In this document: one piece after another, positions 6,934 to 62,729 of the stretch
How positions within the stretch are numbered: the first letter of the stretch is position 1
How the letters are laid out: each line of letters opens with the position of its first letter
NCBI GenBank assembly: GCA_002343185.1
Contig: DDRT01000001.1
Coordinates: 400,215-464,214, forward strand
Length of the DNA: 64,000 nt
Origin: Deltaproteobacteria bacterium UBA2409
GTDB taxonomy: Bacteria > Bdellovibrionota_C > UBA2361 > DDRT01
Direction of reading: 5' to 3'
Notes under the pieces: model-generated
The model's input: the letters and a program-made list of their open reading frames with translations, nothing else
What the model was told of the DNA's origin: nothing
Databases searched by the model: none
Program-made: the position numbers and the translations under genes

Positions 6934-6950
6934 AAAGAAGTCTAGTACTA

Positions 6951-7063
6951 GTCTGGTCAGTCTTTCTTGTCCCCCGTAGCTTCAGCGGTGGGGGAAGACT
7001 GACCTTAGCCTTAAGGACTGGCTAAAGCCAGTCCAGACATAGATTAAAACCTGACCAGGCAGG
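6951..7063. repeat. Family-2 palindromic intergenic element (MITE/REP-like) with terminal inverted repeats GTCTGGTCAG … CTGACCAGGC.
   Basis: It contains the hairpins GGTCAGTCTT…AAGACTGACC and GGACTGGCTAAAGCCAGTCC plus the shared core CTTCAGCG. Related copies are at 51648-51739 and 35773-35858. It lies between convergent genes. Confidence 0.6.
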
Positions 7064-7068
7064 TAAAA

Positions 7069-8650: not shown

Positions 8651-8735
8651 TTAATTTTATTCAGTTTTTAAACAATACAACTTGCGAGCAGCCTGTAACG
8701 AGCAACTTAGAGGCCAGTTGTGGTACAAGCTATAT

Positions 8736-9830
8736 GTGCGAATAGTTCATCTGGCAGATATTCATATAGGTTATAGAAAATACGCCAAAACTAATGCCCA
8801 AGGGATAAATGAACGAGAGGCAGATGTATCGGCCTCATTTAGAGAGGCTTGTGAAAGGATAGTTTTTTTAAACCCTGATCTTATTGTAATAGCAGGTGAT
8901 CTATTTCATACAGTAAGGCCATCGAATGCAAACCTTAGCTTTGTTTTTAGAGAATTAAAAAAGCTAACATCAAGAATAAAAGCACCAGTCGTAATTATAG
9001 CAGGAAATCATGAAACTCCTAAAAGAAACGATACTGGCTCCCCCTTATTACTTCTTAGAGAGATAGATAATGTATTTGTTGCAGAATCGAATTTAGAGTG
9101 GTTTACATTCTCTGACTTTGCTGTATGTGCACTTCCCCATGCAGCAGTAGGAACGGTTCAGGCGCACGAACTTAGAGCTAAAGACTCTTACAAGCGAAAT
9201 ATTCTGGTCTCCCATCTTCAGACAGGAGAAAGCTGGCTAAGTGATTTAGGGGGAGAAGAAAGACTTTTAAGTTCCTTAAATATTGGAGAGTGGGACTATG
9301 TTGCCTTAGGACATGTTCATTCGATGAAACAGGTTGCCTATAATGTTTTCTATTCAGGATCGCTCGAGCATACATCACTAAATATCTGGGCCGAGAATGA
9401 TTTAGCAAAAGGTTTTATTGAGTATGATCTTGATGAAAAAACCTGGAGGTTCCATGAGCTGAGCTCCCCAAGAGAAATTTTGGTCTTACCAACTATTGAT
9501 GTAACCGGGAAAAGTGTTGCAGAAACCCAAAGTGAAATCGTTGAGGCTTTATCTGTTAAAACTCTAAAAGGTAAGCTTGTAAAACTTGTGGTAAAAGGAA
9601 TAGAGCGAGAAGTTCTTCGTTCCTTAAACCATAAAGAGCTTAGACAATTTAGAGCAGAAGCCCTGCATTTACTTTTAGAATTTATTCCAGTTGGCAAAGT
9701 TGAAAGAGCAGCAGCAACTCCAGTTGGCAAACTTGAAGATGAGCTTTATAAGTTTTGTAAAAGCGAGCCACTAAAACTCCTATTTGAAAGATACTTTAAA
9801 GAGCTATCAAAAGAAGACGAGCTAAGATGA
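8736..9830 (+). CDS. sbcD: Exonuclease SbcD / Mre11-family nuclease subunit.
   Basis: Calcineurin-like phosphoesterase motifs: (V/M)RIVHLADIHIG, IAGDLFH, GNHE, GHVH. The track start (TTG 8682) is probably too far upstream. A GTG at about 8736 gives the canonical MRIVHLADIH N-terminus. Confidence 0.8.
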   Translation: MRIVHLADIHIGYRKYAKTNAQGINEREADVSASFREACERIVFLNPDLIVIAGDLFHTVRPSNANLSFVFRELKKLTSRIKAPVVIIAGNHETPKRNDTGSPLLLLREIDNVFVAESNLEWFTFSDFAVCALPHAAVGTVQAHELRAKDSYKRNILVSHLQTGESWLSDLGGEERLLSSLNIGEWDYVALGHVHSMKQVAYNVFYSGSLEHTSLNIWAENDLAKGFIEYDLDEKTWRFHELSSPREILVLPTIDVTGKSVAETQSEIVEALSVKTLKGKLVKLVVKGIEREVLRSLNHKELRQFRAEALHLLLEFIPVGKVERAAATPVGKLEDELYKFCKSEPLKLLFERYFKELSKEDELR

Positions 9831-11836
9831 AGCTTATTAAACTTGAACTTAAAAATTTCAGACAGCACAAAAATACAATACTAACTCTAAAAGATGGAGT
9901 TACAGGAATTCTTGGCCAAAATGGCTCAGGAAAGTCCTCATTAGTTGAGGCTATTTCGTTTTCACTCTACGGATCTAAATCAATCAGAGGAACGCTTGAT
10001 GAGCTTAAATCAAGAGACGAGCCAGAAGGTGTACTTAATGCAGCCCTTACTTTTGAGATCGATTCTACAGTTTATAGAGTTGAGAGAAGTCTTTCAGATG
10101 CCAAGTTTTTTGTTGGAGGAAAATTAGAAGTTAAAGGCTCAAGAGATGTAACTTCTAAAGTAGAGCATATCATAGGAATGAACTATGATGAGTTTGTTTC
10201 AACCTTTTATACAGAACAAAAAGGTTTAGAGTTCTTAAGTAGAAAAAAAGGTGGAGCAGAAAGAGAAAGATTTATAATGCGCCTTCTTGGCTATGATAAG
10301 GTAGAAAAAATTCAGGAAAAACTAAGAGACCAAAAACGTAATCTCAAATCAATGATCTCTTCACTAGAATTTGTTGACTCCTCTGAAGAAGACTTAAAGA
10401 GTGAGCTCAAAAATGAAGAGGAGATCTTAGAAGTACTTAAAAAACAGGAGAAAGGGCTTTCTATTAAGCTAAATGATGTCACTAAAGAGCAAGAGGAAGA
10501 GAAAAAAGCTCTTGAGAGAATTAGTAGTGGTAGAGAGGAGTTTTTAAAGCTTGATAAAGAGCGAAAAAGGCTTGAAGGTGTTTTAGATGAGCAAAAAAGG
10601 GCTCTTAGTAACTCAAAAATTGAAAACTTAAGAGCCTCAGAAGAGATAACTCAAGAACTTAATCAAGTCTCGAAGTTACTGGGAATAGGCGAAAAGGAAC
10701 TTTTAGATCTTGTTAAGAGAGTTTCAACAAATAAAGCTCAGCTTGAGTTAAAAAAGAATGAGAGGGACTCTAAAAGAAAAGCTCTGTTCGAAAGAAAAAA
10801 ATCAATTCTTTCAATTTCTAAGATAGAAGAGAGGTGTCCAACCTGTGGACAGAGCTTTGAAAATCTAGCAGATGCAATTTTGCACCTTGAGCAGGAAGAG
10901 AAAGTTATCGAGCAGATTATAATTGATGATTCTATAGTTAAAGAAGCCGAAAGCCTTCACAAACAAAAAAAGAAAGAGCTAGATACACTTAGATTGAAGG
11001 AAGCAACTCTTAAAACAGAGCTTCAATCGGCTCAAGAGTCAGAGAGGCTAAAAGAGATTAAAGAGAAAGCCGAACTTAGGATTAAAGAAACTAAGGGTTT
11101 TATAATTGAAATTGAAGGGAACCTTAAAAAATTAACATACTCTGAAGAAAAGTATCTCTCACAAAGAACAAGGTTAGAAGTTGTAACCTCGATCCTAACC
11201 AATTTAAGAATGGAACGATTAAAAGTTGAAGGAGACATTAAGGAGAGTCTTGGAAAAATCAATAAAATTGAAGAGATCTTAAAAAGACTTGTAGAGCAGG
11301 TTCAGATAAGAAAGTCTGGCCGAGAGGAGATGGCGCTTCTTGAGTCTGGAGATACAGTACTTTCTGAGTTTAGAAGCTACTTAACTTCAAGTATTAAACC
11401 TAGACTTTGTGAGCTTACATCTGAGTTTCTTTATGAATTAACCGATGCTCGTTATAGAGAGGCAATATTCTCAGAGGACTTTACCCCACAGATAGTCGAT
11501 GATGGAGAGGTTCTAACTGTAATGAGTGGTGGGGAGGAAGATATTCTTCATCTAAGTGTAAGGCTCGCACTATCGCAGCTTCTTGCAGAAAGAGCCGGAA
11601 GAGAGTTTTCATTATTGATTTTAGATGAGGTATTTGGCTCGCTTGATGAATTAAGAAGAAGTAATTTATTAGTTCTTCTTTCGGGACTTACAAACAGGTT
11701 TGAGCAGATATTAGTTATTTCTCACTTTGAAGATGTAAAAGATGCAGTAGATCACGTTGTTTTAATTCAAGTCGATGAAAAAACTGGTTCTAGTTTGGTT
11801 AGCTCAGCAGAGCTTGGAGTGGTGGTAAATATTTAA
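9827..11836 (+). CDS. sbcC: SbcC/Rad50-family ATPase, short 669-aa form.
   Basis: N-terminal Walker A GQNGSGKSS, central coiled coil with a CPTCGQ zinc hook, and a C-terminal signature/Walker B (LSGGEEDILHLSVRLAL…LLILDEVFGSLD). The start overlaps the sbcD stop by 4 nt. Confidence 0.75.
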   Translation: MKLIKLELKNFRQHKNTILTLKDGVTGILGQNGSGKSSLVEAISFSLYGSKSIRGTLDELKSRDEPEGVLNAALTFEIDSTVYRVERSLSDAKFFVGGKLEVKGSRDVTSKVEHIIGMNYDEFVSTFYTEQKGLEFLSRKKGGAERERFIMRLLGYDKVEKIQEKLRDQKRNLKSMISSLEFVDSSEEDLKSELKNEEEILEVLKKQEKGLSIKLNDVTKEQEEEKKALERISSGREEFLKLDKERKRLEGVLDEQKRALSNSKIENLRASEEITQELNQVSKLLGIGEKELLDLVKRVSTNKAQLELKKNERDSKRKALFERKKSILSISKIEERCPTCGQSFENLADAILHLEQEEKVIEQIIIDDSIVKEAESLHKQKKKELDTLRLKEATLKTELQSAQESERLKEIKEKAELRIKETKGFIIEIEGNLKKLTYSEEKYLSQRTRLEVVTSILTNLRMERLKVEGDIKESLGKINKIEEILKRLVEQVQIRKSGREEMALLESGDTVLSEFRSYLTSSIKPRLCELTSEFLYELTDARYREAIFSEDFTPQIVDDGEVLTVMSGGEEDILHLSVRLALSQLLAERAGREFSLLILDEVFGSLDELRRSNLLVLLSGLTNRFEQILVISHFEDVKDAVDHVVLIQVDEKTGSSLVSSAELGVVVNI

Positions 11837-11850
11837 GGCTGCTAGCATTT

Positions 11851-11882
11851 GTCTGGTCAGGCCTTCCGGCCTGACCCCCAAG
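11851..11882. repeat. Family-1 GC-rich palindromic unit (REP-like): GTCTGGTCAGGCC-TTCC-GGCCTGACCCCCAAG.
   Basis: Perfect hairpin GGTCAGGCC/GGCCTGACC. Same family as 25918, 30104, 35711, 41830 and 49657. It sits after the sbcC stop between convergent genes. Confidence 0.7.
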
Positions 11883-11914
11883 CTATTGAATTTCTCCCCA
11901 CCTCTTCTCTTGGT

Positions 11915-25917: not shown

Positions 25918-25983
25918 TGGGGGTCAGGCCGGGAGGCCTGACCAGGCAACTGCTAGCTTAGGCCTCCCGGCCTGACCCCCAAG
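25918..25983. repeat. Family-1 palindromic element, inverted dimer: GGGGGTCAGGCCGGGAGGCCTGACCAGG … AGGCCTCCCGGCCTGACCCCCAAG.
   Basis: Two hairpin units in inverted orientation form a roughly 65-bp super-palindrome immediately after the 552-aa ORF stop. Confidence 0.75.
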
Positions 25984-30103: not shown

Positions 30104-30153
30104 CTTGGGGGTCAGGCCGGAAGGCCTGACCAGGCAAGGACTAGACTGGTCAG
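30104..30153. repeat. Family-1 palindromic element (one full unit plus a degenerate inverted partner).
   Basis: CTTGGGGGTCAGGCCGGAAGGCCTGACCAGG … CTGGTCAGGCTCCCCAAG. It lies between convergent genes. Confidence 0.7.
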
Positions 30154-30172
30154 GCTCCCCAAGTACTAACGA

Positions 30173-33192: not shown

Positions 33193-33855
33193 ATGACCAA
33201 AGAGATACTAGGGCTAGAAATTGGAGCTAAAGTCAAAGATGGCGAAGTGCTAGGTGTAGGCACCGGCTCAACTGTTGATGCAGCTATAATAGCAATCGGC
33301 GAAAGAATCAAAAAAGATAAGATAAAGGTTTTCGGAGTCACCTCGTCAAGAGAATCAAGCTTAAGATGCAGAGAAGTTGGTATTACCGTGTTAGAGCTTG
33401 GGGTTTCTATCGATTGGGGTTTTGATGGGGCTGATTTTGTTACACAGAAGCTTGAGTGCCTGAAAGGAAAAGGAGCTGCACTTTTAAGGGAAAAAATATT
33501 AGCCCACTCTCTTAATAAGTTTATAGTTATCGCTGACGATTCAAAATTAGTTTCAACTCTAGATAATCATCCAATTCCTGTCGAAGTGCTTCCTCCAGCT
33601 GAACTTTTAGTAAAAGCAGCTCTTAAAGAGCTTGGTGCTGCAGAGATAAAGCTTAGAGAAGGGACAGGAAAGTTTGGAGGAGTTGTTACTGAATTTGGTA
33701 ATATAATTTTAGATGTCAAATTTCCTAAAGTTTCAGAAGTTCTTTCAAAAGAGATCAAATGTATTACTGGAGTTGTGGATCACGGCCTATTTTTAAATGA
33801 AGCCTCTGAAGTTTGGATCGGCACTAAGAGTGGTGTACGAAAGTTTACGAGATGA
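33193..33855 (+). CDS. rpiA: Ribose-5-phosphate isomerase A.
   Basis: RpiA motifs [13 protein letters not shown] and [12 protein letters not shown]. The likely start is [12 protein letters not shown]. The track start at 33040 overlaps folK. Confidence 0.8.
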
Positions 33856-35711
33856 ACGACTATCTACTAGATGAAGAAGGTTATCAGGAACTTTATGAGA
33901 GATCCGTCAGGGATCCAGAAAATTTCTGGTCAGAGCAGGCTAGTTTGTTTTTAAGCTGGTTCAAGCCTTGGGAAAATGTTCTTAGATGGGATTATAAAAA
34001 AGGTCTTATTAAGTGGTTTGAGGGTGGAAAATTAAATGTTTGTTACAATTGTGTAGACAGGCATTTACCTAAAAGGGCCAATCAAGTTGCTATTCTTTGG
34101 GAGGGAAATGAACCTGGCGAAAATCGCTCAATCACTTATTTAGAGCTTAGTAAACTTGTTCAGAGATTTTCGAACGTTCTAAAAGATCACGGGGTTAAGA
34201 GAGGTGATCCAGTAATAATTTACATGCCAATGGTTCCTGAAGCAGCAATGGCAATGCTAGCTTGTGCCAGGATTGGCGCGGTGCATTCTGTGGTGTTTGC
34301 AGGGTTTTCTGCAGAGGCACTTAAAGATAGAATTTCAGATTCTGGAGCAAAACTTGTTATCACTGCCAACGAAGGACTTAGAGGAGATAAGGTAATTCCT
34401 TTAAAAAAGACTGTCGATGAGGCCAACCCCAAAAGAGTTTTAGTTTATAAAAGAACAAATTCTCCATGTGAAATGAAAGAAGGCAGGGATTTTTGGCTTG
34501 ATCTTGATTCCGCAAAAGATGGTTGTATGCCTGAAGAAATGGAGTCAGAGGATCCTTTATTTATTCTTTACACATCCGGCTCTACAGGTAAACCAAAAGG
34601 AGTGCTCCACACTCAGGCAGGTTATTTACTTTATACGGCGATGACCTTTAGATATGTGTTTGACTATAAGGATAGAGATATCCACTTTTGTGCTGCCGAT
34701 GTAGGTTGGATTACTGGACATAGCTATGTCGTGTATGGCCCCCTGGCTAATGGTGCAACGACTGTGATGTTTGAATCTATTCCAACGTATCCAGATCCAG
34801 GCCGATATTGGGATACAATAGAAAGGTTAAAAGCTAACACATTCTACACTGCTCCAACTGCTATAAGAGCGATTGCAAAAGAAGATAATAGCTTTGTAAC
34901 AAGGTACGATAGATCCTCTTTGAAAGTATTAGGCTCAGTCGGAGAGCCAATAAATAAAGACGCCTGGGAGTGGTATTCAGATGTTGTTGGTGAAGGGAGA
35001 TGTCCTGTGGTTGATACATGGTGGCAAACAGAGACGGGTGGAATATTAATTAGCCCATTACCTGGAGCGATTAAAACTAAACCTGGCTCTGCTACAAAGC
35101 CATTTTTCGGTATTAGACCAGCTTTACTTAAAGAAAATGGAGATCAGGTTTTAAACCCTGGTGAGGCGGGACGTCTTTGCATTGAATATCCATGGCCAGG
35201 TCAGGCAAGAACCGTTTGGGGAGATCATGAGAGATTTGTCTCTACTTATTTTTCTAGTTTCCCAGGATTTTATTTTACAGGTGATGCCGCAAAATTTGAT
35301 GAAGATGGTTATTTCTGGATCTCAGGACGAGTGGATGATGTTTTGAATGTGTCTGGTCATAGAATTGGAACAGCCGAGATTGAAAGTGCGATCGTTGCTT
35401 CTGGGATTGTTGCTGAAGCTGCAGTAGTTGGATTTCCACATGCAGTTAAAGGGGAGGGGATCTGTGCTTTTTGTATTCCAAAAGGAGAAGGAGACATTAA
35501 AGTTGTTATAGATTCCGTTGGAAAATTTATAGGAGGCTTTGCAAAACCTGATAAGGTAGTTTTTGTTTCAGGGCTACCTAAAACTAGATCGGGTAAGATT
35601 ATGAGGAGAATTTTGAGAAAGATTGCTTCTGGTGAAACTGAATCTTTAGGAGACACTTCAACTTTAGCTGATCCGTCAGTTGTTGAGGAATTACTCTGCA
35701 ATGTAAGTTAG
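33852..35711 (+). CDS. acs: Acetyl-CoA synthetase (AMP-forming acyl-CoA synthetase).
   Basis: AMP-binding signature [12 protein letters not shown], and later [13 protein letters not shown] and C-terminal [10 protein letters not shown]. Length 619 aa. Substrate (acetate versus propionate) is not resolvable by eye. Confidence 0.85.
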
Positions 35712-35886
35712 GGGTCAGGCTAGTTGAGGGTCAGGGCGAGAGGATAATGCCTGAGCAGGTTTTTAGACTTTAGGGACTGGTTTCCTACTTCGCCAACTTG
35801 TCCTTCGAAGCTTCAGCGAAGTAGGAGGCTATATAGGACAAGAAAGCCAGTCCAGACAAATTCTAGACTCTCCCGGCCTGACCCCC
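35711..35886. repeat. Composite repeat: a family-2 element (35773-35858) nested inside a split family-1 unit (GGGGTCAGGC … CTCCCGGCCTGACCCCC).
   Basis: Family-1 half-sites flank a core (GGGACTGG…CTTCGAAGCTTCAGCGAAGTAGGAGG…CCAGTCCAGACA) that matches the 6951 and 51648 elements. Confidence 0.65.
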
Positions 35887-35900
35887 ACAAGTAAGCGAAA

Positions 35901-36374
35901 CTAGTTATCTAGCTTTGACATTATTAGATCTGTAATATCCCCGTTCCCCTCACCAAAAAGTACAGGGCCTCTTGGCTGCTCACCTTTGTAAAGGACAAGA
36001 TCTATATCTTCTGATTTTGCATACGCCTCAATCTCTTTCATCGCTTTTTTTGTAAGCTCTTCGTTGAAGGCTGCAACCTGAGACTGGATAGAGTTTTCCG
36101 TTTCTTGAAAAAATTTACTCATTGCTCGTTGCTTCTCTTTAAAGGCTTTTATATCAGCTTCTTGTTTTGATTCACGCGCCTTCTTTTCTAGGGCAATTAA
36201 GGTAGCATTATCTTTCTCAAGCGAGGTTGTTGCAGCAGCAGATTTTTTATCAATCTCGGCACGCTTTACTTTCGCCTCTTTTGATTCATTTAAGATTCTA
36301 TTTATATCGACCGTAACAATCTTGTATTCGGCTAGTGAAAGGGTTGTTAACAGTAATAATGCAAGTATTCTCAT
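35901..36374 (-). CDS. skp: Skp/OmpH-like periplasmic chaperone.
   Basis: Signal peptide MRILALLLLTTLSLA, 157 aa, and a coiled-coil-rich K/E composition typical of OmpH. Confidence 0.55.
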   Translation of the reverse strand: MRILALLLLTTLSLAEYKIVTVDINRILNESKEAKVKRAEIDKKSAAATTSLEKDNATLIALEKKARESKQEADIKAFKEKQRAMSKFFQETENSIQSQVAAFNEELTKKAMKEIEAYAKSEDIDLVLYKGEQPRGPVLFGEGNGDITDLIMSKLDN

Positions 36375-36457
36375 ATGGCCATGGATTTTGTTCTATTTAA
36401 CAAGTTAGAGCAAGAGGAGGGGGGAGGAGTAAGGATTTGAGTAATATTCGGGGCACC

Positions 36458-36760
36458 TCACCCCTTTCTTGATTGAATAAGTTTATAGAGATGAGCTGCT
36501 AGTTTGTCTAATAGCTCAATAGTGTCTGTATTTGGATAGCTTAAGTCTAAAATAGCCTGACACTCTCTAAGAGAACCAAAAGCTATAGAGTAGAATCTTC
36601 TTTGATCAGGCCTTGTTTCTCTTCCTACCCCTTCAGCCAGATTAAGCACAATGCTAGAGGCAGCCCTTTTTAGCTGGTCAGCTAGATGTCTTGGAAGTGG
36701 CATAGCGGTTGCTTTTCGGTAAAACAAAACGGCGAGATTGTAAGTTCTAAAGTTTTTCAT
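36458..36760 (-). CDS. Four-helix-bundle protein ('23S rRNA intervening sequence protein' family; Avd-like).
   Basis: The 100-aa protein MKNFRTYNLAV…LNLAEG…FYSIAFGSLRECQ matches the conserved pattern of the TIGR02436/PF05635 family. Confidence 0.7.
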   Translation of the reverse strand: MKNFRTYNLAVLFYRKATAMPLPRHLADQLKRAASSIVLNLAEGVGRETRPDQRRFYSIAFGSLRECQAILDLSYPNTDTIELLDKLAAHLYKLIQSRKG

Positions 36761-36770
36761 AGTTTATAGA

Positions 36771-36821
36771 CTCCTTTTCAAAAAAAGTTCCTGCCCGGAT
36801 GAGAACTTTTTTTGAAAAGGA
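36771..36821. promoter_or_regulatory. Perfect 51-bp inverted repeat (20-bp arms, 11/12-nt loop) between the divergent four-helix-bundle genes. The outer arms are the two Shine-Dalgarno sequences.
   Basis: CTCCTTTTCAAAAAAAGTTC-ctgcccggatga-GAACTTTTTTTGAAAAGGAG. AAAAGGAG is 10-11 nt upstream of each start codon. Confidence 0.6.
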
Positions 36822-36833
36822 GATTCCTTGTTT

Positions 36834-37133
36834 ATGAAAAACTTTAGAACTTACAATTTATCCGTTTCATTCTACCGAAGTGCAACAGCAATGCCACTTC
36901 CAAGCCCTCTTAAAGACCAGCTTAAAAGGGCTGCTCTGTCAGTGCCATTAAATCTGGCAGAAGGTAGAGGGAGAAGAACCAGAGCTGATCAGATAAGATT
37001 CTTCAGTATAGCGTTTGGATCAGTCAGAGAGTGCCAGGCTCTATTTGACATAGCTGATCTCAAAGATACAGATACTTATAGACTATTAGATAGCCTTGCA
37101 GCATCACTATATAAGCTAATCAAGAAGGGGTGA
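36834..37133 (+). CDS. Four-helix-bundle protein (paralog of 36458-36760, same family).
   Basis: MKNFRTYNLSV…LNLAEGRGRRT…FFSIAFGSVRECQ is roughly 60% identical to the divergent neighbour. The start is taken at the second Met after the SD. Confidence 0.7.
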   Translation: MKNFRTYNLSVSFYRSATAMPLPSPLKDQLKRAALSVPLNLAEGRGRRTRADQIRFFSIAFGSVRECQALFDIADLKDTDTYRLLDSLAASLYKLIKKG

Positions 37134-41825: not shown

Positions 41826-41829
41826 CAAG

Positions 41830-41934
41830 CGGGGGTCAGGCCGCCCTATTGTTGCTTCATCCGCTGGCGCGGATGATAGAACCCTGACCAGGCAAGCATT
41901 ACGTCTGGTCAGGCCTTCCGGCCTGACCCCCAAG
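41830..41934. repeat. Family-1 palindromic element, dimer with an extra internal hairpin (CATCCGCTGGCGCGGATG).
   Basis: GGGGGTCAGGCC…CCTGACCAGG … CTGGTCAGGCCTTCCGGCCTGACCCCCAAG. It overlaps the last ~9 codons of the convergent 376-aa ORF. Confidence 0.7.
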
Positions 41935-43039
41935 TAGAACTCGTTGCACCAAGAAAATTTTCAAGAACAACTAGCTCACTAGAATGTTGTATTGCCTTAG
42001 AACCTGTCACTAGGTTCTCACCCTCTTTAATAATTGTTCCATCTTTTCTGATAAAACATGGCATTAGAGGTGGCAGTTTTCTGAGTTCATCCAGTATTGC
42101 AATCATAATGGAATCATCAGGATCTTTTAGTTTTAATGCCTTTCTTCGGAGTTCTAAAACATAATAAAGACCCTCTTGGAAAAGTTCTCGTATTGAGTTG
42201 CTTGAACTAGCTTTTTCAAGAGCAATGTTAATGCAGCCTACTATAAACTCTTCACCGATTTTTATCTGTTCAATCTCATAAAAGGGCAGATTAAAATGTA
42301 CGACCAAAGCATTTAAAATAAGTGCCAATTCTTCTCGGTCATCATCCTTAAAGTTAACAAGGAGACCTGCACTAGCTTTAAGTTCAGATTTTGGTTCTTT
42401 AAATTTATCAATTTTTTTCGGGCTTATAACTTCGGATGCAAACTCAAGATCTGGGATTCCTTCCGCAGCGAGCCTTTTTAGTTTGTCCTGGTAGCTATCC
42501 TCTTCTAATGCACTGGGGGTTGAAACTGTTGGTATACTCAAAACTTGATAAAAAACTTCAGGACTTGTTTCAAATAGAAGAGCTAAAATTCGACCTAAGG
42601 CAAAAAACTTATCAGGGTCTTCATGAGAGATTAAAATCCATGTGTGTCCCTGATCTGGTGTGTAAAAGCCTGGTGCCGGCGGAGCATCCGTAGGTTCTTC
42701 GTTCGTTTCTACAGTAACGTAAGCCGATAGGATTAAAGACAGAACTTTAAGATCAATAACTTTCAGTATTTTTTGGAGGATTGAAAGCCCACCTTCATCA
42801 TCGTCTAAGAGTAGCCATGAAAAGAAATTTTCTTCGCTAACTTTATCTTTATTCCATAAATCTAAGTCCAAAAAAGTTCTGGTCTGCTCCAGAGTTGCGA
42901 GCATTATAAGCTCTACTGAGCTCTCAAGCCCTTGATCTTTTATGCAATAATATAGTGTCTGAGCAGGTAGCGATTTTACAACCACCTCTGGAGCTTCAGC
43001 TGAATAGATAGTGGTTATTAGATCTTTTGATTTTATCAT
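41909..43039 (-). CDS. Hypothetical protein (376 aa), translationally coupled downstream of infC.
   Basis: The start overlaps the infC stop by 1 nt. No recognisable motif. The C-terminal codons lie inside the repeat element. Confidence 0.45.
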   Translation of the reverse strand: MIKSKDLITTIYSAEAPEVVVKSLPAQTLYYCIKDQGLESSVELIMLATLEQTRTFLDLDLWNKDKVSEENFFSWLLLDDDEGGLSILQKILKVIDLKVLSLILSAYVTVETNEEPTDAPPAPGFYTPDQGHTWILISHEDPDKFFALGRILALLFETSPEVFYQVLSIPTVSTPSALEEDSYQDKLKRLAAEGIPDLEFASEVISPKKIDKFKEPKSELKASAGLLVNFKDDDREELALILNALVVHFNLPFYEIEQIKIGEEFIVGCINIALEKASSSNSIRELFQEGLYYVLELRRKALKLKDPDDSIMIAILDELRKLPPLMPCFIRKDGTIIKEGENLVTGSKAIQHSSELVVLENFLGATSSTWGSGRKA

Positions 43040-49657: not shown

Positions 49658-49756
49658 GTAAGCTGACTTGGGGGTCAGGCCGGGAGGCCTGACCAGACGT
49701 AGTGCTTGACTGGTCAGGCCTCCCGGCCTGACCCCCAAGTAGCCTGACCCCCAAAG
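49657..49756. repeat. Family-1 palindromic element, perfect inverted dimer plus an extra half-site.
   Basis: CTTGGGGGTCAGGCCGGGAGGCCTGACCAG-acgtagtgcttga-CTGGTCAGGCCTCCCGGCCTGACCCCCAAG-tag-CCTGACCCCCAAAG. It lies between convergent genes. Confidence 0.8.
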
Positions 49757-49757
49757 A

Positions 49758-51569
49758 CTAATTTATTTGTTCTTTAAAAATACTATCCACTAAGCTTCGC
49801 ATTACTGCCTCTTCATCTTGCCCGGATGCTCTTGAATTTTGAGTAGTTGGTCTAGAAGATACAAAACTTATTTCTAAAGTGTCGTCAGCTTTTTCAAATG
49901 AGATACTAAATAGCGAATCATCTGATACTTTAAATGGAGTTCTTGAAATCAACTGCCTAGTCCATCTCTCATTAGGAATTAATTTTACAGGCAGTCTATG
50001 ACCGTGATTTCTAAAGATAGCAGGAGATCGATTAAAAAGAAGTTGTCTGTACTCTTCCGAATTGTCAGCAAGAATATTTAATGCTTCTGTTCTTAGTAAC
50101 TCATCATATTTTGGCCTAAGCTTTGAGAGTACCTCATAAGTTAAAGCCTCATCTTCATTAATCTTAGCTTCATAGAGGTTATAAAAAGCTTGAGCATGAG
50201 CTCTTTGATCCAGGACTTTTTGTTTCTCTAATCTTGGAAGAATAAATGAACGTGGAATTGAGCTTAATAATCCTCCAAGTGTTGGGTACTCAAGCATTGA
50301 ATCAGTGTTTCTTATTTTCAGATCCTCAAAATCTCTAAGTGTTTCAATTAAAATCTGCTTTGCTTCACGTTCTAACCAATAGGCTCTTATGGATCTTTTT
50401 AAGTTGGCCCAAATCTCACTGGCTCTCTCAAGAATTGTGAGTTTGGTAGTTTTCACAATATTATTTTTGGCTCTTAAACTTTGGGCAAGTGATTGCATTA
50501 CCCCAGCCTGTAGATCTTCGATTGAAGTACCAATTTTCCCAAACCACTGCTTTTTTTCTAATGCCGCCTCAAAATGTTTTATGGCTCCATCAACATCACC
50601 TGAATAAAGTGCAACTCTTCCACGAGCTAGATGCACAAATGCTCTATGCTCTTCGCCATTTCTAAGTGGAAACTGAGCTACGCAGGCCTCAAAGTTATCA
50701 ATTGCTTTTTTTGCTCCCAGAAGATTTAGCTGATCCATATAGAGAAGTGCTAAATTCAATGCTGGTAAAATATGCTCACATCCATCCTGTTTACCTAAAG
50801 CTCTTGTGTAGGCGATCTCAGCATTTTTATCATCAAACATCTCCTCATAAACTTCACCCATATTGTTAAGCGGAGTAGCAGGATTTCCTAAACGTCCAAG
50901 TGATTCTTCAAGATCAATTGCAGCTTCAAAAATTGAAATAGATTCTTTTGGTTGCTGGTTCATTGAAAGTAGAATACCAAGCATATTTAAAGTTCTCCCG
51001 GGCTCAGCGCCTGACATAACTCCAGCTCTAGCAACTCTTATCGCATCTTGAATGTTTCCTAGTTTCATCATTATCCAGCTTCGTGAAGCAGGGTACCAGG
51101 CAGCCATATATCCATGTCTTGCAAACTCATCGAGCACCTCGAGCGCTTCTTGATAGAGATCTAAGTTTAGCTTCGATTGTGATCTAAGATTATAAAGGTG
51201 CATGTGAGTAGATTCTGTGAAGCTATCGTAATAGGGGGGTTCCCCAAACTGCTCATAAAATAAACTAAAAGCCTTTTCTACGTATCTTTCAGCAAGTCTA
51301 AAGTGTCCAACATAAGCCATATAATAGTGACCTAATAGACTATGTGCGCGGATATTCCTTGGATCTTTTTTGATAGCTTGAATAAGTCTGCTTCTCGCAT
51401 CAAGTGGTCTTTCATCCTGAAGAAGTGTAATTGCATCTAATAGAAGCTCATCAGCTGTTTTATCTTCAACAGGGATATTTTCATCAAAGCTTAAGTCAAA
51501 AGGATCAAATGGATCTTGGCAGAATCCATGAATGGTAAAAAGAAGAATCAGAATAACTTTTTTCACCAT
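49758..51569 (-). CDS. Secreted TPR-repeat protein (603 aa), last gene of the DUF58-transglutaminase operon.
   Basis: Signal peptide MVKKVILILLFTIHGFC, and multiple TPR-like helical repeats (AxxYxxLG…). The start overlaps the upstream gene stop by 7 nt. Confidence 0.5.
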   Translation of the reverse strand: MVKKVILILLFTIHGFCQDPFDPFDLSFDENIPVEDKTADELLLDAITLLQDERPLDARSRLIQAIKKDPRNIRAHSLLGHYYMAYVGHFRLAERYVEKAFSLFYEQFGEPPYYDSFTESTHMHLYNLRSQSKLNLDLYQEALEVLDEFARHGYMAAWYPASRSWIMMKLGNIQDAIRVARAGVMSGAEPGRTLNMLGILLSMNQQPKESISIFEAAIDLEESLGRLGNPATPLNNMGEVYEEMFDDKNAEIAYTRALGKQDGCEHILPALNLALLYMDQLNLLGAKKAIDNFEACVAQFPLRNGEEHRAFVHLARGRVALYSGDVDGAIKHFEAALEKKQWFGKIGTSIEDLQAGVMQSLAQSLRAKNNIVKTTKLTILERASEIWANLKRSIRAYWLEREAKQILIETLRDFEDLKIRNTDSMLEYPTLGGLLSSIPRSFILPRLEKQKVLDQRAHAQAFYNLYEAKINEDEALTYEVLSKLRPKYDELLRTEALNILADNSEEYRQLLFNRSPAIFRNHGHRLPVKLIPNERWTRQLISRTPFKVSDDSLFSISFEKADDTLEISFVSSRPTTQNSRASGQDEEAVMRSLVDSIFKEQIN

Positions 51570-53674
51570 CTTCTTTTAAACCACCAGTTGAAAATAGATT
51601 TTAGGTTGAACAGAGATCTAAATGTTTCAAATTTTGAAAGATTGAGACCTGTCTGGACTGGCTTTCCTATCCTACGTAGTTTTAGCGAAGTAGGAAGCCT
51701 GTCCTTAGTAAAGGTCAGTCTAAAGACTGACCAGACAGGATTTTTGTTTTTATACTTTTCTTCATTCAATAATTTTATAAACTCTTCGAGATCGGAACCA
51801 TGAGATTTACGAACTCTTTTAATAAAGTTTAAGCGAGTTTCCCCATAGTTTCGTTTAAATCCTATGTCCATAAGTTTAGCAAAGACTCCAATTTTAAGAA
51901 GGGATGGGAATAGTAAATACCCCTTCAGTAATAAGATCTTAGATAAAACAACAAAGAAGAATAATGTCGCAAACATGATTACTAATGCTGGCTTTAGCCA
52001 GGCAAATGAAAACGAAGTACTTTCGGAGTCTTTTTTAGCTGGAAGTTCAGGAACTAGCTCTTCAGCAGGGTTAACAAGATTCATAAGCTCTTCAAGTAAA
52101 CCTTGATCGACCTCAGTATCAGCATGGCTTTCAACCTGAAGGGGCTGTGTATCAAAGGCTATCCACCCATAGTCTTGAAAATAAACTTCGGCCCATGCGT
52201 GTCTGTCGCTCATTCTAAGTAATATATGTCCATCTTTAGCTTGGCTTAAGTCAGTAAGGTATCCAGTAGCGATTCTAGATGGAATTCCAATTGCACGAAG
52301 CAGATAAACAGTTGCATGGGCAATATGAACGCAGTACCCACGACCATCCCCAAAAAGATAAGGTGCAACTGGATCGTCCGATGCAGGATGGTTTGGAGTA
52401 AGAGTATAAATTGTAAACTGTGCAAGGTAATCCACGATTCTTTTAATAGAATCAAACGGAGTAGGGGAGTCAGCAGTAATTTTTTTTGCTAGCTCGTGAT
52501 ACCTGGGATCTGTGTGTGCTGCTAAGTAGTTTGCACGTTTATTGTTGTCCCAAAGTGGATCTCCGACTGGTGTGTTTCTTAGAGTTTCAAGCTTTAAGCC
52601 TAACGAAAATGAGAGTGCTCTATAGGCGCCACCTTTAAATCTTCCAGGATTAGGATTTTTGAGCGGGGTTAAAAGTTTTGGATAATCAATCGCAAATGGA
52701 TTTTTATGATCTGCTAAAAGATAGATCTCTTGGGTTAACTCAGATCTACTTATCACTTCCTTTCTAACTTGAGAAAATGAAACGCTTGGCGAATCTCGGC
52801 TTATATCATCGTCAATGCCACTTAAAACAAGCTCTTTACCATTATACTTTGAAAGTGCTGACTCTCTTAGATAAAGCATAGGCGATGTAGGGTTCATCGT
52901 ATAATCACTTTCAAGCCTTACAAGTCCTGCTGGTTGATTTGTGCTGCCTAAAGCTGATTCAAATGTTAGTGGGCTTAACCCTTCTTCTGAGCCTTGGCCA
53001 ACACCGTTACTAAAAAAGGCTTCTCCTTTTTCCTGATAGTATCTTGAGATTCCAAAGAATGAGAGATAGCCGATAAGTAGAAAAATAAATGTTGATAAGA
53101 AGATTCCAAATATTGAAAGTCGCTTGGAAATAGCAGCTCTTTGGTCATTAAATTGTCTAACAGAAAGCGCTCCATATATGACAGCTAGTAATGCCACGAT
53201 AACTCCAAATGCTGAAAATGTTGTTAGTGGAGAAACTCCTAACTGCCAGGAGAGATCATTTATAATTTTCGGCATATCAAGTTGTAGATTTCTGTGAGTA
53301 GCTAAAGAGCCAACTACAACCGTCAGTATCAGTCCAAGCTCTACTAAAAATGCAGCTCTATATTTTTTAACTGCCCAAGTTAGAATGAAAGTTAAAAAGA
53401 AGATAAACATTACTGCTTGAAGATGTAAGAATATGGAGTATGACTTTAAACTTGAATTTCCAAAGAGAGCTAAGATTAGGCCAACCAAGTTGATTGATAG
53501 GGCTCCTCCGATTGTTGTTATTAACAAAACACCAAGTAATTTTAGGTTAGAGGCTCTGCTGCCAACTATAACTCCACCTAAGATTCCAATCGATAGAATG
53601 GCAGGGTGAGTCCCGAATGGAAGCACAAAGTCCACTGCAACTATTGCCATTGTTAGAAGGAGAAAGCGCATCAC
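51563..53674 (-). CDS. Transglutaminase-like membrane protein (DUF3488 / TGase core architecture).
   Basis: Multi-TM N-terminus, and a TGase catalytic triad context (GRGYCVHIAHATVYLLRAIGIP … DRHAWAEVYF … WIAFD). The last ~60 codons run through the family-2 repeat at 51648-51739. Confidence 0.7.
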   Translation of the reverse strand: MMRFLLLTMAIVAVDFVLPFGTHPAILSIGILGGVIVGSRASNLKLLGVLLITTIGGALSINLVGLILALFGNSSLKSYSIFLHLQAVMFIFFLTFILTWAVKKYRAAFLVELGLILTVVVGSLATHRNLQLDMPKIINDLSWQLGVSPLTTFSAFGVIVALLAVIYGALSVRQFNDQRAAISKRLSIFGIFLSTFIFLLIGYLSFFGISRYYQEKGEAFFSNGVGQGSEEGLSPLTFESALGSTNQPAGLVRLESDYTMNPTSPMLYLRESALSKYNGKELVLSGIDDDISRDSPSVSFSQVRKEVISRSELTQEIYLLADHKNPFAIDYPKLLTPLKNPNPGRFKGGAYRALSFSLGLKLETLRNTPVGDPLWDNNKRANYLAAHTDPRYHELAKKITADSPTPFDSIKRIVDYLAQFTIYTLTPNHPASDDPVAPYLFGDGRGYCVHIAHATVYLLRAIGIPSRIATGYLTDLSQAKDGHILLRMSDRHAWAEVYFQDYGWIAFDTQPLQVESHADTEVDQGLLEELMNLVNPAEELVPELPAKKDSESTSFSFAWLKPALVIMFATLFFFVVLSKILLLKGYLLFPSLLKIGVFAKLMDIGFKRNYGETRLNFIKRVRKSHGSDLEEFIKLLNEEKYKNKNPVWSVFRLTFTKDRLPTSLKLRRIGKPVQTGLNLSKFETFRSLFNLKSIFNWWFKRRW
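51648..51739. repeat. Family-2 palindromic element with perfect terminal inverted repeats CCTGTCTGG … CCAGACAGG. It is embedded in the 3' end of the transglutaminase-like ORF.
   Basis: It shares the GGACTGG…AGCGAAGTAGGA…GGTCAGTCT…AGACTGACC architecture with the 6951 and 35773 elements. Confidence 0.65.
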
Positions 53675-62495: not shown

Positions 62496-62729
62496 TTACT
62501 CAGGGCAAAGCTCAGGATCGCAATTTGATTCACATTTAAGACATAAATCAGAGCCTGAAAAAGTTTCACGAACATTTTCTTCTCTTCTTTGAAAAGCACC
62601 AAATAAAAACAAAGCTGCTAATGTCATCACTACAAGAATAAGTACAAATGCTAAAACTGATTCTGGAATAACAGCGCCGAGTTGTTTATCCGACTGGAGT
62701 GGCTTTATTGTCCCCCGTAGTTTTTTCAC
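62496..62729 (-). CDS. Small single-pass membrane protein (77 aa). Candidate Flp-family pilin-like protein with a Cys-rich C-terminal tail.
   Basis: Leader MKKLRGTIKPLQSDKQLG, then AVIPESVLAFVLILVVMTLAALFLFGAF (Gly before a hydrophobic helix, with Glu at +5 as in Flp/type-IV pilins), then CLKCESNCDPELC. 4-nt ATGA overlap with the upstream 409-aa gene. Confidence 0.3.
   Translation of the reverse strand: MKKLRGTIKPLQSDKQLGAVIPESVLAFVLILVVMTLAALFLFGAFQRREENVRETFSGSDLCLKCESNCDPELCPE

What the first reader, a model, noticed from the sequence alone, without database searches (positions are those of the whole stretch)
35711..35886. Nested repeat: a family-2 element inserted inside a family-1 unit
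At 35711-35886 the left half (GGGGTCAGGC…) and right half (…CTCCCGGCCTGACCCCC) of a family-1 unit are separated by about 150 bp. That insert contains a complete family-2 core (GGGACTGG…CTTCGAAGCTTCAGCGAAGTAGGAGG…CCAGTCCAGACA). Nesting implies that at least one family was mobile after the other was in place. It also gives a relative insertion order: family 2 into family 1.
Basis: seen in the sequence. Interest (0 to 1): 0.5.

Follow-up and report, generated by a model that had tools for sequence, protein, structure and literature searches.

The report
Mosaic palindromic repeat between acs and skp
The 190-base spacer between two convergent genes is a real composite of two families of small hairpin repeats, one sitting in the middle of a doublet of the other; this is an ordinary kind of bacterial "junk" repeat cluster, found here in an uncultured, probably Bdellovibrionota genome.

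Summary
35708-35893 is bounded by family-1 (F1) sequence in inverted orientation, and its centre matches family 2 (F2). Both matches are far beyond chance.

F1 is a GC-rich REP/REPIN-like hairpin that usually occurs as inverted doublets. F2 is a 70-130 nt element of two hairpins with TGTCTGG/CCAGACA ends.

- The left flank is a nearly whole but degenerate F1 unit, plus a partial duplicate of its terminal arm.
- The right flank is only loop plus outer arm.
- The F2 part covers only the right half of the family profile. Its left terminus survives only as a remnant that merges with the F1 inner arm.
- The F2 part carries an extra inverted copy of its own inner hairpin.
- There is no target-site duplication.

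Two sister lineages have acs and skp overlapping by 12-17 nt with no repeats. The whole composite is therefore a lineage-specific insertion. It also rewrote the Acs C-terminus.

Removing 35760-35858 leaves a collinear F1 doublet, so "F2 inside F1" fits the topology. The order of events at this locus is not proven:
- The families share a 12-mer at the junction.
- A sister copy of the same F2 variant lies beside another F1 unit elsewhere in the genome.

No transposase was found. Nested small repeats are already known in bacteria, so interest is low to moderate.

The parts
33852..35711 (+). acs (acetyl-CoA synthetase, 619 aa). Its last codons and its stop codon TAG (35709-35711) lie in or at the edge of the repeat.
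   Evidence: Pfam ACAS_N, AMP-binding and AMP-binding_C. The C-terminus is ...EELLCNVS* here against ...EELITKFQITYPT* in the sister species.
35708..35724 (+). Partial duplicate of the F1 terminal arm (TTAGGGGTCAGGCTAGT).
   Evidence: It parallels the 16-nt terminal duplication of the F1 copy at 49738-49754 (I11).
35725..35759 (+). Degenerate but nearly complete F1 left hairpin unit: outer arm GAGGGTCAGGGC, loop GAGAGG plus a 5-nt expansion ATAAT, inner arm GCCTGAGCAGG.
   Evidence: nhmmer hit with an F1 profile built without this locus: 35758-35724 minus strand, model positions 11-39, E 0.04. Alignments.
35746..35769 (+). Remnant of the F2 left terminus and first hairpin (TGCCTGAGCAGG TTTTTAG ACT). 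It overlaps the F1 inner arm. About 10 nt of the first hairpin's right arm are missing compared with the sister copy.
   Evidence: Alignment with the gene-X copy (L128/L003) and with L082 and L101. The nhmmer envelope of the F2 hit starts at 35746.
35770..35858 (+). F2 core: second hairpin arms GGACTGG (35774-35780) and CCAGTCC (35847-35853), an inner hairpin module, and the right terminus CCAGACA.
   Evidence: nhmmer with an F2 profile built without this locus: 35767-35859, model 64-126 of 127, E 2.7e-11. The exact 14-mer AGCCAGTCCAGACA occurs 3 times against 0.03 expected. DNA fold z = -3.5.
35797..35828 (-). Extra, inverted copy of the F2 inner hairpin module, lying inside the loop of the first copy. 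It is a 30-nt insertion relative to all other F2 copies except the gene-X sister copy.
   Evidence: It appears as an insertion in the plus-strand nhmmer alignment and as a match to model 71-120 on the minus strand, E 2.8e-6. Multiple alignment.
35859..35869 (+). AATTCTAGACT, a probable remnant of the F1 doublet spacer and of the start of the right unit. Compare GGACTAGACTGGTCAGG at 30139-30155.
   Evidence: Comparison with the spacer of the F1 doublet at 30104-30160. This assignment is an inference.
35870..35893 (+). F1 right unit, loop plus outer arm plus tail only (CTCCCGGCCTGACCCCCA-C-AAGTA). The inner arm is missing.
   Evidence: Exact 18-mer shared with 7 other F1 units, 0 expected. nhmmer 35870-35894, model 21-43, E 7.7e-4.
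35901..36374 (-). skp/ompH chaperone gene (157 aa), convergent with acs.
   Evidence: Pfam OmpH. Its stop codon aligns with the stop codons of sister species.
49662..49757 (.). Reference F1 doublet with terminal duplication. It is the closest relative of the left flank of the finding.
   Evidence: It folds as one long hairpin, z = -12.8.
51648..51741 (-). Reference solo F2 element without F1 flanks (CCTGTCTGG...CCAGACAGG ends, two hairpins).
   Evidence: E 7e-26. DNA fold z = -6.1.
6948..7065 (+). F2 element with the inner module in its first hairpin instead of its second. It is followed after 10 nt by an F1-like inner-arm fragment, CCTGACCAGGCAGG.
   Evidence: E 3.8e-23.

Best explanation
The acs-skp spacer is a lineage-specific mosaic of two related families of non-coding palindromic repeats of the REP/REPIN/BIME kind.

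What it is:
- An F1 inverted doublet forms the outside. F1 doublets fold into one long hairpin.
- An F2 element occupies the centre of that doublet, which is the apex of the long hairpin.
- The composite, or its precursors, landed at the junction of two convergent genes that originally overlapped.
- That event pushed the genes about 190 nt apart and replaced the last roughly 10 codons of acs with 5 new ones. The stop codon now lies in the first bases of the repeat.

How it most likely works (inferred):
- Both families are non-autonomous single-strand hairpin elements.
- They are copied in trans by an enzyme encoded elsewhere in the genome. A RAYT-type or IS200/IS605-type HUH tyrosine transposase is the best guess, because there are no target duplications.
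- Existing hairpins act as preferred landing or recombination sites, which would produce repeats inside repeats.
- After formation the composite decayed. The left side is degenerate, the F2 left hairpin arm and the F1 right inner arm are deleted, and the F2 inner hairpin was duplicated in inverted orientation.
- At least its right part was recently homogenised with, or copied from, a sister copy upstream of a PpiD-like gene.

No function needs to be assumed. A side effect as a stable 3' hairpin for both convergent transcripts is possible but untested.

Shown: family membership of each part, the insertion relative to sister lineages, the change to the Acs C-terminus, and the existence of the sister copy.
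Inferred: the enzyme, hairpin targeting, the order F1 then F2, and in situ versus imported nesting.
For: Family membership:
- The F1 18-mer occurs 8 times against 0 expected.
- F1 and F2 profiles built without this locus recover its three parts.
- After removing 35760-35858 in silico, the rest aligns end to end with F1 doublets, including the terminal duplication of the 49667 copy.

REP/REPIN-like behaviour:
- F1 doublets fold as single long hairpins, z = -8.8 and -12.8. F2 folds as a two-hairpin element closed by its ends, z about -6.
- The composite folds with the F1 arms closing the whole structure, z = -2.9 as DNA and -3.3 and -4.1 as RNA on the two strands.
- All ten repeat loci in the window lie outside genes or at 3' ends, mostly between convergent genes.

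Empty sites:
- In a species with Skp 83% and Acs 86% identical, acs and skp overlap by 17 nt with no repeat.
- In another lineage with Skp 85% identical, they overlap by 12 nt.
- No F1 or F2 profile hit was found in about 45 kb of sister-lineage loci, partly overlapping.

Independent existence of each family:
- Solo F2 at 51648-51741 and in L070.
- F1 without F2 at five loci.

Sister copy:
- L128 and L003 show F1 left unit, spacer and a complete F2 left end, followed by the same duplicated inner hairpin, upstream of a PpiD-like gene.
- Two identical-sequence assemblies from other metagenomes confirm the window's arrangement.

Literature precedent:
- BOX, RUP and SPRITE repeats inserted into one another (PMC3049150).
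- REPs as insertion hot spots (PMC1525189).
Against: - No transposase of any kind was found. This covers 44 window ORFs and 10 ORFs of related contigs scanned against Pfam. The proposed enzyme is therefore pure inference.
- There is no target-site duplication and no clean F2 termini at this locus.
- The F2 left end and the F1 inner arm are one and the same stretch, so the left junction cannot be placed.
- The shared 12-mer TGTCTGGTCAGG makes recombination or template switching an equally simple route.
- No intermediate state (F1 only, or F2 only, at acs-skp) was found. No relative closer than 85% Skp identity, other than identical sequences, exists in the protein collection.
- The genome is not among the GTDB representative genomes, so genome-wide copy numbers and nesting frequency could not be measured.
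Confidence: 0.6

Rival explanations
1. The nesting did not form at this locus. A pre-formed F1-F2 composite, or at least its F2 plus right F1 part, was copied or gene-converted into the acs-skp junction from a paralogous composite such as the one upstream of the PpiD-like gene. The local topology would then say nothing about the order of insertions here.
For: - The unusual F2 variant with the inverted inner-hairpin duplication is shared with the gene-X copy. That copy also adjoins an F1 left unit in the same relative orientation.
- L003 is 100% identical to the window from 35784 to 36485.
- The right 110 nt of the composite are pristine: exact F1 18-mer and exact F2 16-mer. The left 60 nt are degenerate.
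- The Logan contig L128 stops exactly one 31-mer into the shared stretch, as expected for a repeat present at least twice.
Against: - The left F1 parts of the two copies are of different subtypes. One has the terminal duplication and the other has a 40-nt loop module, so the whole composite was not copied as one piece.
- L003 may be an assembly chimera (coverage 1.75). The extent of identity beyond the first 31 nt is therefore uncertain.
Confidence: 0.22
2. This is not a nested insertion but a hot-spot cluster. F2 and two separate F1 units landed independently side by side in a permissive gap between convergent genes, or the mosaic arose by illegitimate recombination or template switching between repeats that share CTGGTCAGG-type arms.
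For: - Repeats of both families cluster at 3' ends of convergent genes throughout the window.
- F1 and F2 share TGTCTGGTCAGG (a 24-nt exact match of L003 to 11838-11861).
- No target duplication is present.
- The right F1 unit is truncated and the left F2 end is missing.
- The F2 copy at 6948-7065 is merely followed by an F1-like fragment.
Against: - The two F1 parts face outward, exactly as in all four intact doublets in the window. With the centre removed they are collinear with a doublet, including a spacer remnant.
- Independent landings would give this orientation only one time in four.
- The ancestral site had no gap at all, because the genes overlapped.
Confidence: 0.13
3. The region is a functional structured element selected for its own sake, such as a bidirectional terminator, an mRNA 3' stabiliser or a small RNA, rather than selfish repeat debris.
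For: - The folds on both strands are strong: -72.7 and -71.6 kcal/mol, z = -3.3 and -4.1.
- The inner hairpin stem shows some compensatory changes between copies: 91.7% of cells paired and 2 of 6 pairs with changes on both sides.
Against: - No Rfam match, even at E <= 1.
- No U-tract terminator signal above the shuffle expectation.
- The element is absent from sister lineages, which manage with overlapping genes.
- The covariation is weak (31 of 500 shuffles reach it, from only 6 sequences) and is equally expected for DNA hairpin repeats.
- The left side is visibly decaying.
Confidence: 0.05

Closest known systems
REP sequences and REPINs (inverted REP doublets mobilised by RAYT transposases; Bertels & Rainey 2011, PMC3116915; Nunvar 2010, PMC2817692; Ton-Hoang 2012, PMC3333891)
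   Same: - F1 is a GC-rich imperfect palindrome of about 30 nt in a 39.5% GC genome.
- It is extragenic, multi-copy and mostly arranged as inverted doublets with a short variable spacer.
- The doublets fold into one long hairpin and have no target duplications.
- Clusters formed by insertion of one REPIN into or next to another are described for Pseudomonas fluorescens SBW25.
   Different: - No RAYT gene was found in the sequence available.
- There is no sequence similarity to described REP classes.
- The host is an uncultured, probably Bdellovibrionota lineage.
- Units often carry extra hairpin modules in their loops.
Bacterial interspersed mosaic elements (BIMEs) of enterobacteria
   Same: It is a mosaic of palindromic units in alternating orientation, combined with other short conserved motifs, at the 3' ends of genes.
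   Different: - The building blocks are different.
- One whole two-hairpin element sits inside a doublet here, rather than units being strung in tandem.
- The protein binding described for BIMEs (gyrase, IHF, Pol I; from my own knowledge) was not tested.
Pneumococcal BOX / RUP / SPRITE repeats (Croucher 2011, PMC3049150)
   Same: [quoted passage not shown]
   Different: - The sequences are unrelated.
- RUP has a cognate IS630-family element and TA duplications, whereas F2 shows no duplication and no cognate IS.
MITEs (e.g. Nezha, Chunjie, Correia elements)
   Same: F2 is 70-130 nt long, has 7-9 nt terminal inverted repeats (TGTCTGG/CCAGACA), folds tightly, and shows presence/absence differences between relatives.
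   Different: - No target-site duplication at any of the F2 copies examined.
- No parent IS was found.
- F2 is GC-rich rather than AT-rich.
REP-targeting insertion sequences (IS1397, ISPpu9/10, ISPa11; Tobes & Pareja 2006, PMC1525189)
   Same: They set the precedent that REP hairpins are specific landing sites for other mobile DNA.
   Different: Those are autonomous IS elements with transposase genes. Here the inserted element is a non-coding element of about 110 nt.

Membership tests
REP / REPIN (applied to family 1) | Short (about 20-60 nt) imperfect palindrome, G+C-rich relative to the genome | tested here: met
   GGTCAGGCC-GGRA-GGCCTGACC with GGGGG/CCCCC extensions; the window is 39.5% GC.
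REP / REPIN (applied to family 1) | Extragenic and present in many copies | tested here: met
   The terminal arm plus loop occurs 8 times, at 6 loci, in 64 kb with 0 expected. All copies are outside genes or at gene 3' ends. The genome-wide count is not available.
REP / REPIN (applied to family 1) | Two REPs in inverted orientation with a short spacer, folding into one hairpin | tested here: met
   Doublets at 25918-25983, 30104-30160, 41826-41937 and 49667-49742. Of the three folded, two form single long hairpins (z = -8.8 and -12.8) and 41826-41938 folds with its outer arms closing two inner hairpins (z = -6.7); 30104-30160 was not folded.
REP / REPIN (applied to family 1) | A cognate RAYT (Y1 HUH transposase, Pfam Y1_Tnp) in the same genome, typically flanked by the REPs | tested here: inconclusive
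   None was found among 44 window ORFs and 10 ORFs of related contigs. Only about 64 kb plus 8 kb of the genome was available, and the genome is absent from the GTDB representatives.
REP / REPIN (applied to family 1) | Conserved GTAG/CTAC-type tetranucleotide at the foot of the hairpin (cleavage site of the E. coli-type RAYT) | tested here: inconclusive
   CAAGTAG follows the outer arm in only 3 of 9 F1 units with an intact tail (two in the window, one in L101); the others have CAAGTAA, CAAGCTA, CAAGAAT, CAAGTCA or CAAGTTA. At the finding the tail is CACAAGTAAG.
MITE (applied to family 2) | Terminal inverted repeats | tested here: met
   TGTCTGG...CCAGACA, extended to CCTGTCTGG/CCAGACAGG at 51648-51741. 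At the finding only the right terminus is intact.
MITE (applied to family 2) | Target-site duplication flanking the element | tested here: not met
   The flanks of six F2 copies show no consistent direct repeat. The 8-of-9 repeat TTTTAGACT/TTCTAGACT is at chance level by my own estimate (about 5 such pairs expected in 300 nt) and is not at the family's termini.
MITE (applied to family 2) | A parent IS with matching ends in the genome | tested here: inconclusive
   No transposase was found in the sequence available. The whole genome was not available.
Nested insertion (family 2 into family 1) | Flanks are contiguous in the host element once the insert is removed | tested here: met
   The locus minus 35760-35858 aligns collinearly with F1 doublets. 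However, the right inner arm (about 8 nt) is missing and the left junction is ambiguous.
Nested insertion (family 2 into family 1) | The insert has the complete termini of its family, and a duplication if the family makes one | tested here: not met
   Only profile positions 64-126 of 127 are matched. The left terminus is a degenerate remnant fused with the F1 arm.
Nested insertion (family 2 into family 1) | An orthologous or paralogous 'unfilled' host element shows the pre-insertion state | tested here: inconclusive
   Sister lineages lack both families at this site. No F1-only state at acs-skp was found. Unfilled F1 doublets exist only at other loci.
Known structured RNA (Rfam) | Match to a curated covariance model | tested here: not met
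   No hit in the whole window at gathering scores, and none at E <= 1 in 35600-36000.
Intrinsic terminator | GC-rich hairpin followed by a T-run | tested here: not met
   One weak site was found against 0.6 expected from shuffles. The F1 arms are followed by CCCCCAAG, not by T-runs.

The most novel reading that the evidence does not exclude
The locus may be one instance of a general rule in this lineage: hairpin modules are added specifically at the apex of pre-existing hairpins.

Instances seen:
- A 40-nt module lies in the loop of F1 left units at three loci.
- A 31-nt hairpin lies in the loop of either F2 hairpin.
- A copy of that 31-nt hairpin lies inside itself at this locus.
- A whole F2 lies at the apex of an F1 doublet at two loci.

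If true, this would point to a loop- or apex-targeting copy mechanism for non-coding DNA hairpins. Candidates are a hairpin-specific HUH enzyme or repair of broken hairpin tips using other repeats as template. Such a mechanism would build hierarchical palindromes and would be a variant of REPIN biology not described so far.
Probability: 0.2. Interest if true: 0.6.

Novelty: new member of a known kind. Interest (0 to 1): 0.3.

Why it matters
- It documents two previously undescribed families of small palindromic repeats in an uncultured bacterial lineage. Homologues of a neighbouring gene of a sister strain are labelled Bdellovibrionota or Bdellovibrionales.
- It gives a clean before/after case. 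A 190-nt repeat mosaic wedged between two convergent genes that overlap in sister lineages, and it rewrote the C-terminal tail and stop codon of acetyl-CoA synthetase.
- These repeats break short-read assemblies and can create chimeric contigs. L003 is a probable example. Annotators of such MAGs should mask them.
- The recurrent placement of modules in hairpin loops is a lead on how such repeats grow, but it needs a full genome to test.
- As a phenomenon, repeats nested in repeats are already described in Pseudomonas and pneumococci.

Tried and rejected
1. Scan of GTDB representative genomes with the F1 core. It returned only one chance hit, in Erwinia, so the organism is not represented.
2. 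Metagenome scan with the 16-mer AAAGCCAGTCCAGACA. Nearly all were chance matches. Only L070, L082 and L101 were real relatives.
3. Attempt to recover the true right side of the sister composite upstream of the PpiD-like gene.
   - The only place returned stops inside the repeat.
   - A relative at 90% identity or more has 124 nt there without F1 or F2.
   - The search via the upstream glycosyltransferase of that relative led to lineages with different synteny.
   - It is therefore unresolved whether L003 is a chimera or a real recombinant.
4. Target-site duplication. The 9-nt TTTTAGACT/TTCTAGACT repeat was rejected as being at chance level and misplaced. GTAAG on both outer sides overlaps the F1 consensus tail CAAGTA, so it is not evidence either.
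5. RAYT or other transposase hunt in Pfam over 54 ORFs: none found.
6. Rfam and the plasmid collection: no match.
7. Covariation in the inner hairpin stem. The first structure string was off by one column. Corrected, it gives only weak support.
8. Extension of the genome to the right of the window failed because the protein is not on record. The left extension added 8 kb without repeats.
9. Apex insertion as the sole explanation of the loop modules was considered and not adopted. L070 carries the inner hairpin in both F2 hairpins in mirror orientation, which fits equally well an ancestral long-hairpin doublet with later apex deletions.
Full report
**Location and context.** The finding lies in the 189-nt gap between acs (33852-35711, +; Pfam ACAS_N, AMP-binding, AMP-binding_C) and a convergent skp/ompH gene (35901-36374, -). 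The window is 39.5% GC. Identical sequence for this spacer occurs in two independent metagenome assemblies, JGI 3300006417 and ENA ERZ936775 (bioreactor sludge), so the arrangement is not an assembly artefact. The organism is not among the GTDB representative genomes. Homologues of a gene that neighbours the PpiD-like gene in a sister strain are labelled Bdellovibrionota or Bdellovibrionales MAGs. That is only a hint at taxonomy.

**The two families.** Family 1 (F1) is a GC-rich hairpin, GGTCAGGCC-GGRA-GGCCTGACC. It is extended outward by GGGGG/CCCCC and a CAAG(T) tail, and inward by CAG.
- It occurs singly at 11841-11886.
- More often it occurs as inverted doublets with a 10-13 nt spacer: 25918-25983, 30104-30160, 41826-41937 and 49667-49754.
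- The loop plus outer arm (CYYCCGGCCTGACCCCCA) occurs 8 times in the window against 0.00 expected.
- Doublets fold as one long hairpin, z = -8.8 and -12.8. This is the architecture called a REPIN (PMC3116915).

Family 2 (F2) is a 70-130 nt element with TGTCTGG/CCAGACA ends and two hairpins (GGTCAGTCT..AGACTGACC or GGTCAGG..CCTGACC, and GACTGGCT..AGCCAGTC).
- Either hairpin may carry a 31-nt inner hairpin module (TCCNNN-GTAGCTTCAGCGAA-NNNGGA) in its loop.
- Copies lie at 6948-7065 and 51648-51741, with a fragment at 62693-62724, and in metagenome contigs L070, L082 and L101.
- All ten repeat loci of the window are outside genes or at gene 3' ends, mostly between convergent genes.
- Several supply the last codons or the stop codon of the adjacent gene: acs here, a DUF6178 gene at 41909, and a TgpA-like gene that reads through the F2 at 51650.

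**Check of the observation.** Profiles built from the other copies only, excluding this locus, recover three parts:
- F1 at 35870-35894 (model positions 21-43, E 7.7e-4).
- F1 on the opposite strand at 35758-35724 (positions 11-39, E 0.04).
- F2 at 35767-35859 (positions 64-126 of 127, E 2.7e-11).

**Anatomy in detail.**
- *Left flank.* It is more than a half. 35708-35724 is a partial duplicate of the terminal arm. 35725-35759 is a nearly complete, degenerate F1 unit with a 5-nt loop expansion. Together they parallel the copy at 49719-49754, which has the same 16-nt terminal duplication (86% over 36 nt; I11).
- *Right flank.* 35870-35893 is loop plus outer arm plus tail only. The inner arm is missing. 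The preceding AATTCTAGACT resembles the spacer end of the doublet at 30104.
- *F2 part.* It has the second hairpin, the inner module and an intact right terminus. Its left terminus and first hairpin survive only as TGCCTGAGCAGG-TTTTTAG-ACT. Compared with the sister copy this has lost about 10 nt, and its left arm is the same stretch as the F1 inner arm.
- *Extra module.* The inner module contains a 30-nt inverted copy of itself (35797-35828). It shows as an insertion on the plus strand and as a second profile match on the minus strand.
- *Fold.* The whole composite folds with the F1 arms closing the structure. As DNA, dG is -31.4 kcal/mol with z = -2.9. As RNA, z = -3.3 and -4.1 on the two strands.

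**Empty sites.** In a related species (Skp 83% and Acs 86% identical; five Logan assemblies) acs and skp are convergent and overlap by 17 nt, with no intergenic DNA. In a second lineage (Skp 85%) they overlap by 12 nt. Homology with the window stops after ...GAGGAATTA (35693) and resumes at the skp stop codon (35901-35903). About 190-200 nt are therefore an insertion in the window's lineage. Acs now ends ...EELLCNVS* instead of ...EELITKFQITYPT*, and the stop codon TAG lies in the first bases of the repeat. No F1 or F2 profile hit was found in the sister-lineage loci fetched. This proves gain of the composite, but not the order of its parts.

**Is F2 nested in F1, and in what order?**

For nesting:
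- The two F1 parts face outward, as in every intact doublet in the window.
- Removing 35760-35858 leaves a sequence collinear with F1 doublets from tail to tail.
- Each family also exists alone.

Against a simple 'F2 transposed into F1 here':
- There is no target duplication. The 8-of-9 repeat TTTTAGACT/TTCTAGACT is expected by chance about five times in 300 nt by my own estimate, and it is not at the family's ends.
- One F2 end is missing.
- The families share TGTCTGGTCAGG and near-palindromic variants at exactly the junctions. For example, L003 matches 11838-11861 over 24 nt. Recombination or template switching would therefore give the same picture.
- The same odd F2 variant exists a second time in this genome.

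**The second copy.** Upstream of a PpiD-like gene, two assemblies (L003; and L128 from the run that also gave L002) show an F1 left unit with a 40-nt loop module, then the spacer GCTGCTAGCATT, then a complete F2 left end, then the same duplicated inner hairpin.
- L128 ends exactly one 31-mer into the shared stretch, as a de Bruijn unitig must at a repeat.
- L003 continues 100% identical to the window through skp.
- Synteny in relatives is acs-skp, and L003 has 1.75x coverage. L003 is therefore probably a chimera, or possibly a recombinant.
- A relative at 90% identity or more has only 124 nt upstream of that gene, without F1 or F2.
- Conclusion: nesting of F2 within or beside F1 doublets recurs. 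The right part of the acs-skp composite may have been copied or converted from this paralogue.

**Mechanism.** The features fit REP/REPIN-type elements moved in trans by a HUH tyrosine transposase. These features are hairpins, inverted doublets, no duplications, positions at the 3' ends of convergent genes, presence/absence differences between close relatives, and some compensatory change in stems (91.7% of cells paired, 2 of 6 pairs changed on both sides, 31 of 500 shuffles as good, so weak). No such enzyme, nor any transposase, was found in 54 ORFs scanned. The enzyme is therefore an inference.

Loop modules recur:
- A 40-nt module lies in F1 left units at 41834-41891, in L082 and in the gene-X copy.
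- The 31-nt hairpin lies in either F2 hairpin.
- F2 lies at the apex of an F1 doublet.

This suggests apex-directed growth. However, L070 carries the inner hairpin in both F2 hairpins in mirror orientation. That is equally consistent with long ancestral hairpins and later apex deletions. Deletion derivatives of F1 are visible at 30146-30160 and 25951-25960.

**Function.** There is no Rfam match, even at E <= 1. No terminator signal exceeds the shuffle expectation. There is no match in plasmids. The element is absent from sister lineages and is decaying on its left side. A role as a stable 3' hairpin for both transcripts is possible but untested.

**Comparison with known systems and verdict.** F1 meets the structural definition of REP/REPIN, but the RAYT criterion could not be tested genome-wide. 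F2 has MITE-like ends but fails the target-duplication criterion. [quoted passage not shown] It also resembles pneumococcal repeats that 'have inserted into one another' (PMC3049150). REPs as landing sites are documented in PMC1525189.

The inferred order is plausible but unproven. The phenomenon is a new member of a known kind, and interest is low to moderate.

Noticed in passing
window 36458-37133: Two divergent paralogous genes of the PF05635 family (23S rRNA-intervening-sequence protein) share a 102-nt, 83% inverted repeat at their 5' ends (arms 36660-36761 and 36833-36934). In the sister species the HDOD gene is followed directly by skp (110-nt gap), so this pair is a second lineage-specific insertion next to skp. 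The JGI and ENA contigs L001 and L002 both end about 300 nt beyond skp, that is at this inverted repeat.
   Followed up: partly
window 51563-51871 (minus strand); F2 at 51648-51741: The TgpA-like (transglutaminase) ORF reads straight through an F2 element. Its last ~58 codons comprise the F2 (about 30 codons) and the sequence between the F2 and the stop codon. The next gene starts 7 nt before that ORF's stop. The insertion therefore lies inside an operon junction and extends or rewrites a C-terminus.
   Followed up: partly
window 41909-41938: The stop codon and the last roughly 9 codons (..TWGSGRKA*) of a DUF6178 gene lie inside the right unit of an F1 doublet. This is another gene end supplied by a repeat.
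   Followed up: partly
window 41834-41891; L082 1669-1723; L128/L003 gene-X upstream: A 40-nt module (GCCCTATT..TCRTCCGCTGGCGCGGAYGATAGA), which contains its own hairpin, replaces the GGRA loop of the F1 left unit at three loci, always in the same orientation. This is a distinct asymmetric F1 subfamily.
   Followed up: partly
window 8682-11836, next to the F1 unit at 11841-11886: Genes for an SbcD-like (Metallophos) and an SbcC-like (SMC_N/SbcC) protein lie immediately upstream of an F1 unit. SbcCD is the nuclease that cuts DNA hairpins. This is probably coincidental, but it is relevant to how a genome tolerates many long palindromes.
   Followed up: no
L003 (ENA ERZ761604, 1.9 kb, coverage 1.75): This contig joins skp, through the shared F2 and right-F1 sequence, to the upstream region of a PpiD-like gene instead of to acs. 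It is either an assembly chimera through the repeat or a real recombinant between two repeat copies.
   Followed up: partly
window 49738-49754 and 35708-35724; L101 11520-11540; L082 1655-1668: The terminal arm or G-run of F1 is often partially duplicated in tandem at the outer end (for example GCCTGACCCCCAAGTA|GCCTGACCCCCAA). The same 16-nt duplication is seen at two loci of the window, which suggests either a propagating subtype or a recurrent by-product of the copying mechanism.
   Followed up: no
L131 2905-2935 (relative of the gene-X locus): At the site where the window's genome carries about 300 nt of F1 and F2 upstream of the PpiD-like gene, a relative at 90% identity or more has only a minimal hairpin, GCCTGGATAAAACCAGATC. 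This resembles the first hairpin of the F2 in L082. It may be a seed or a relic of the family.
   Followed up: no
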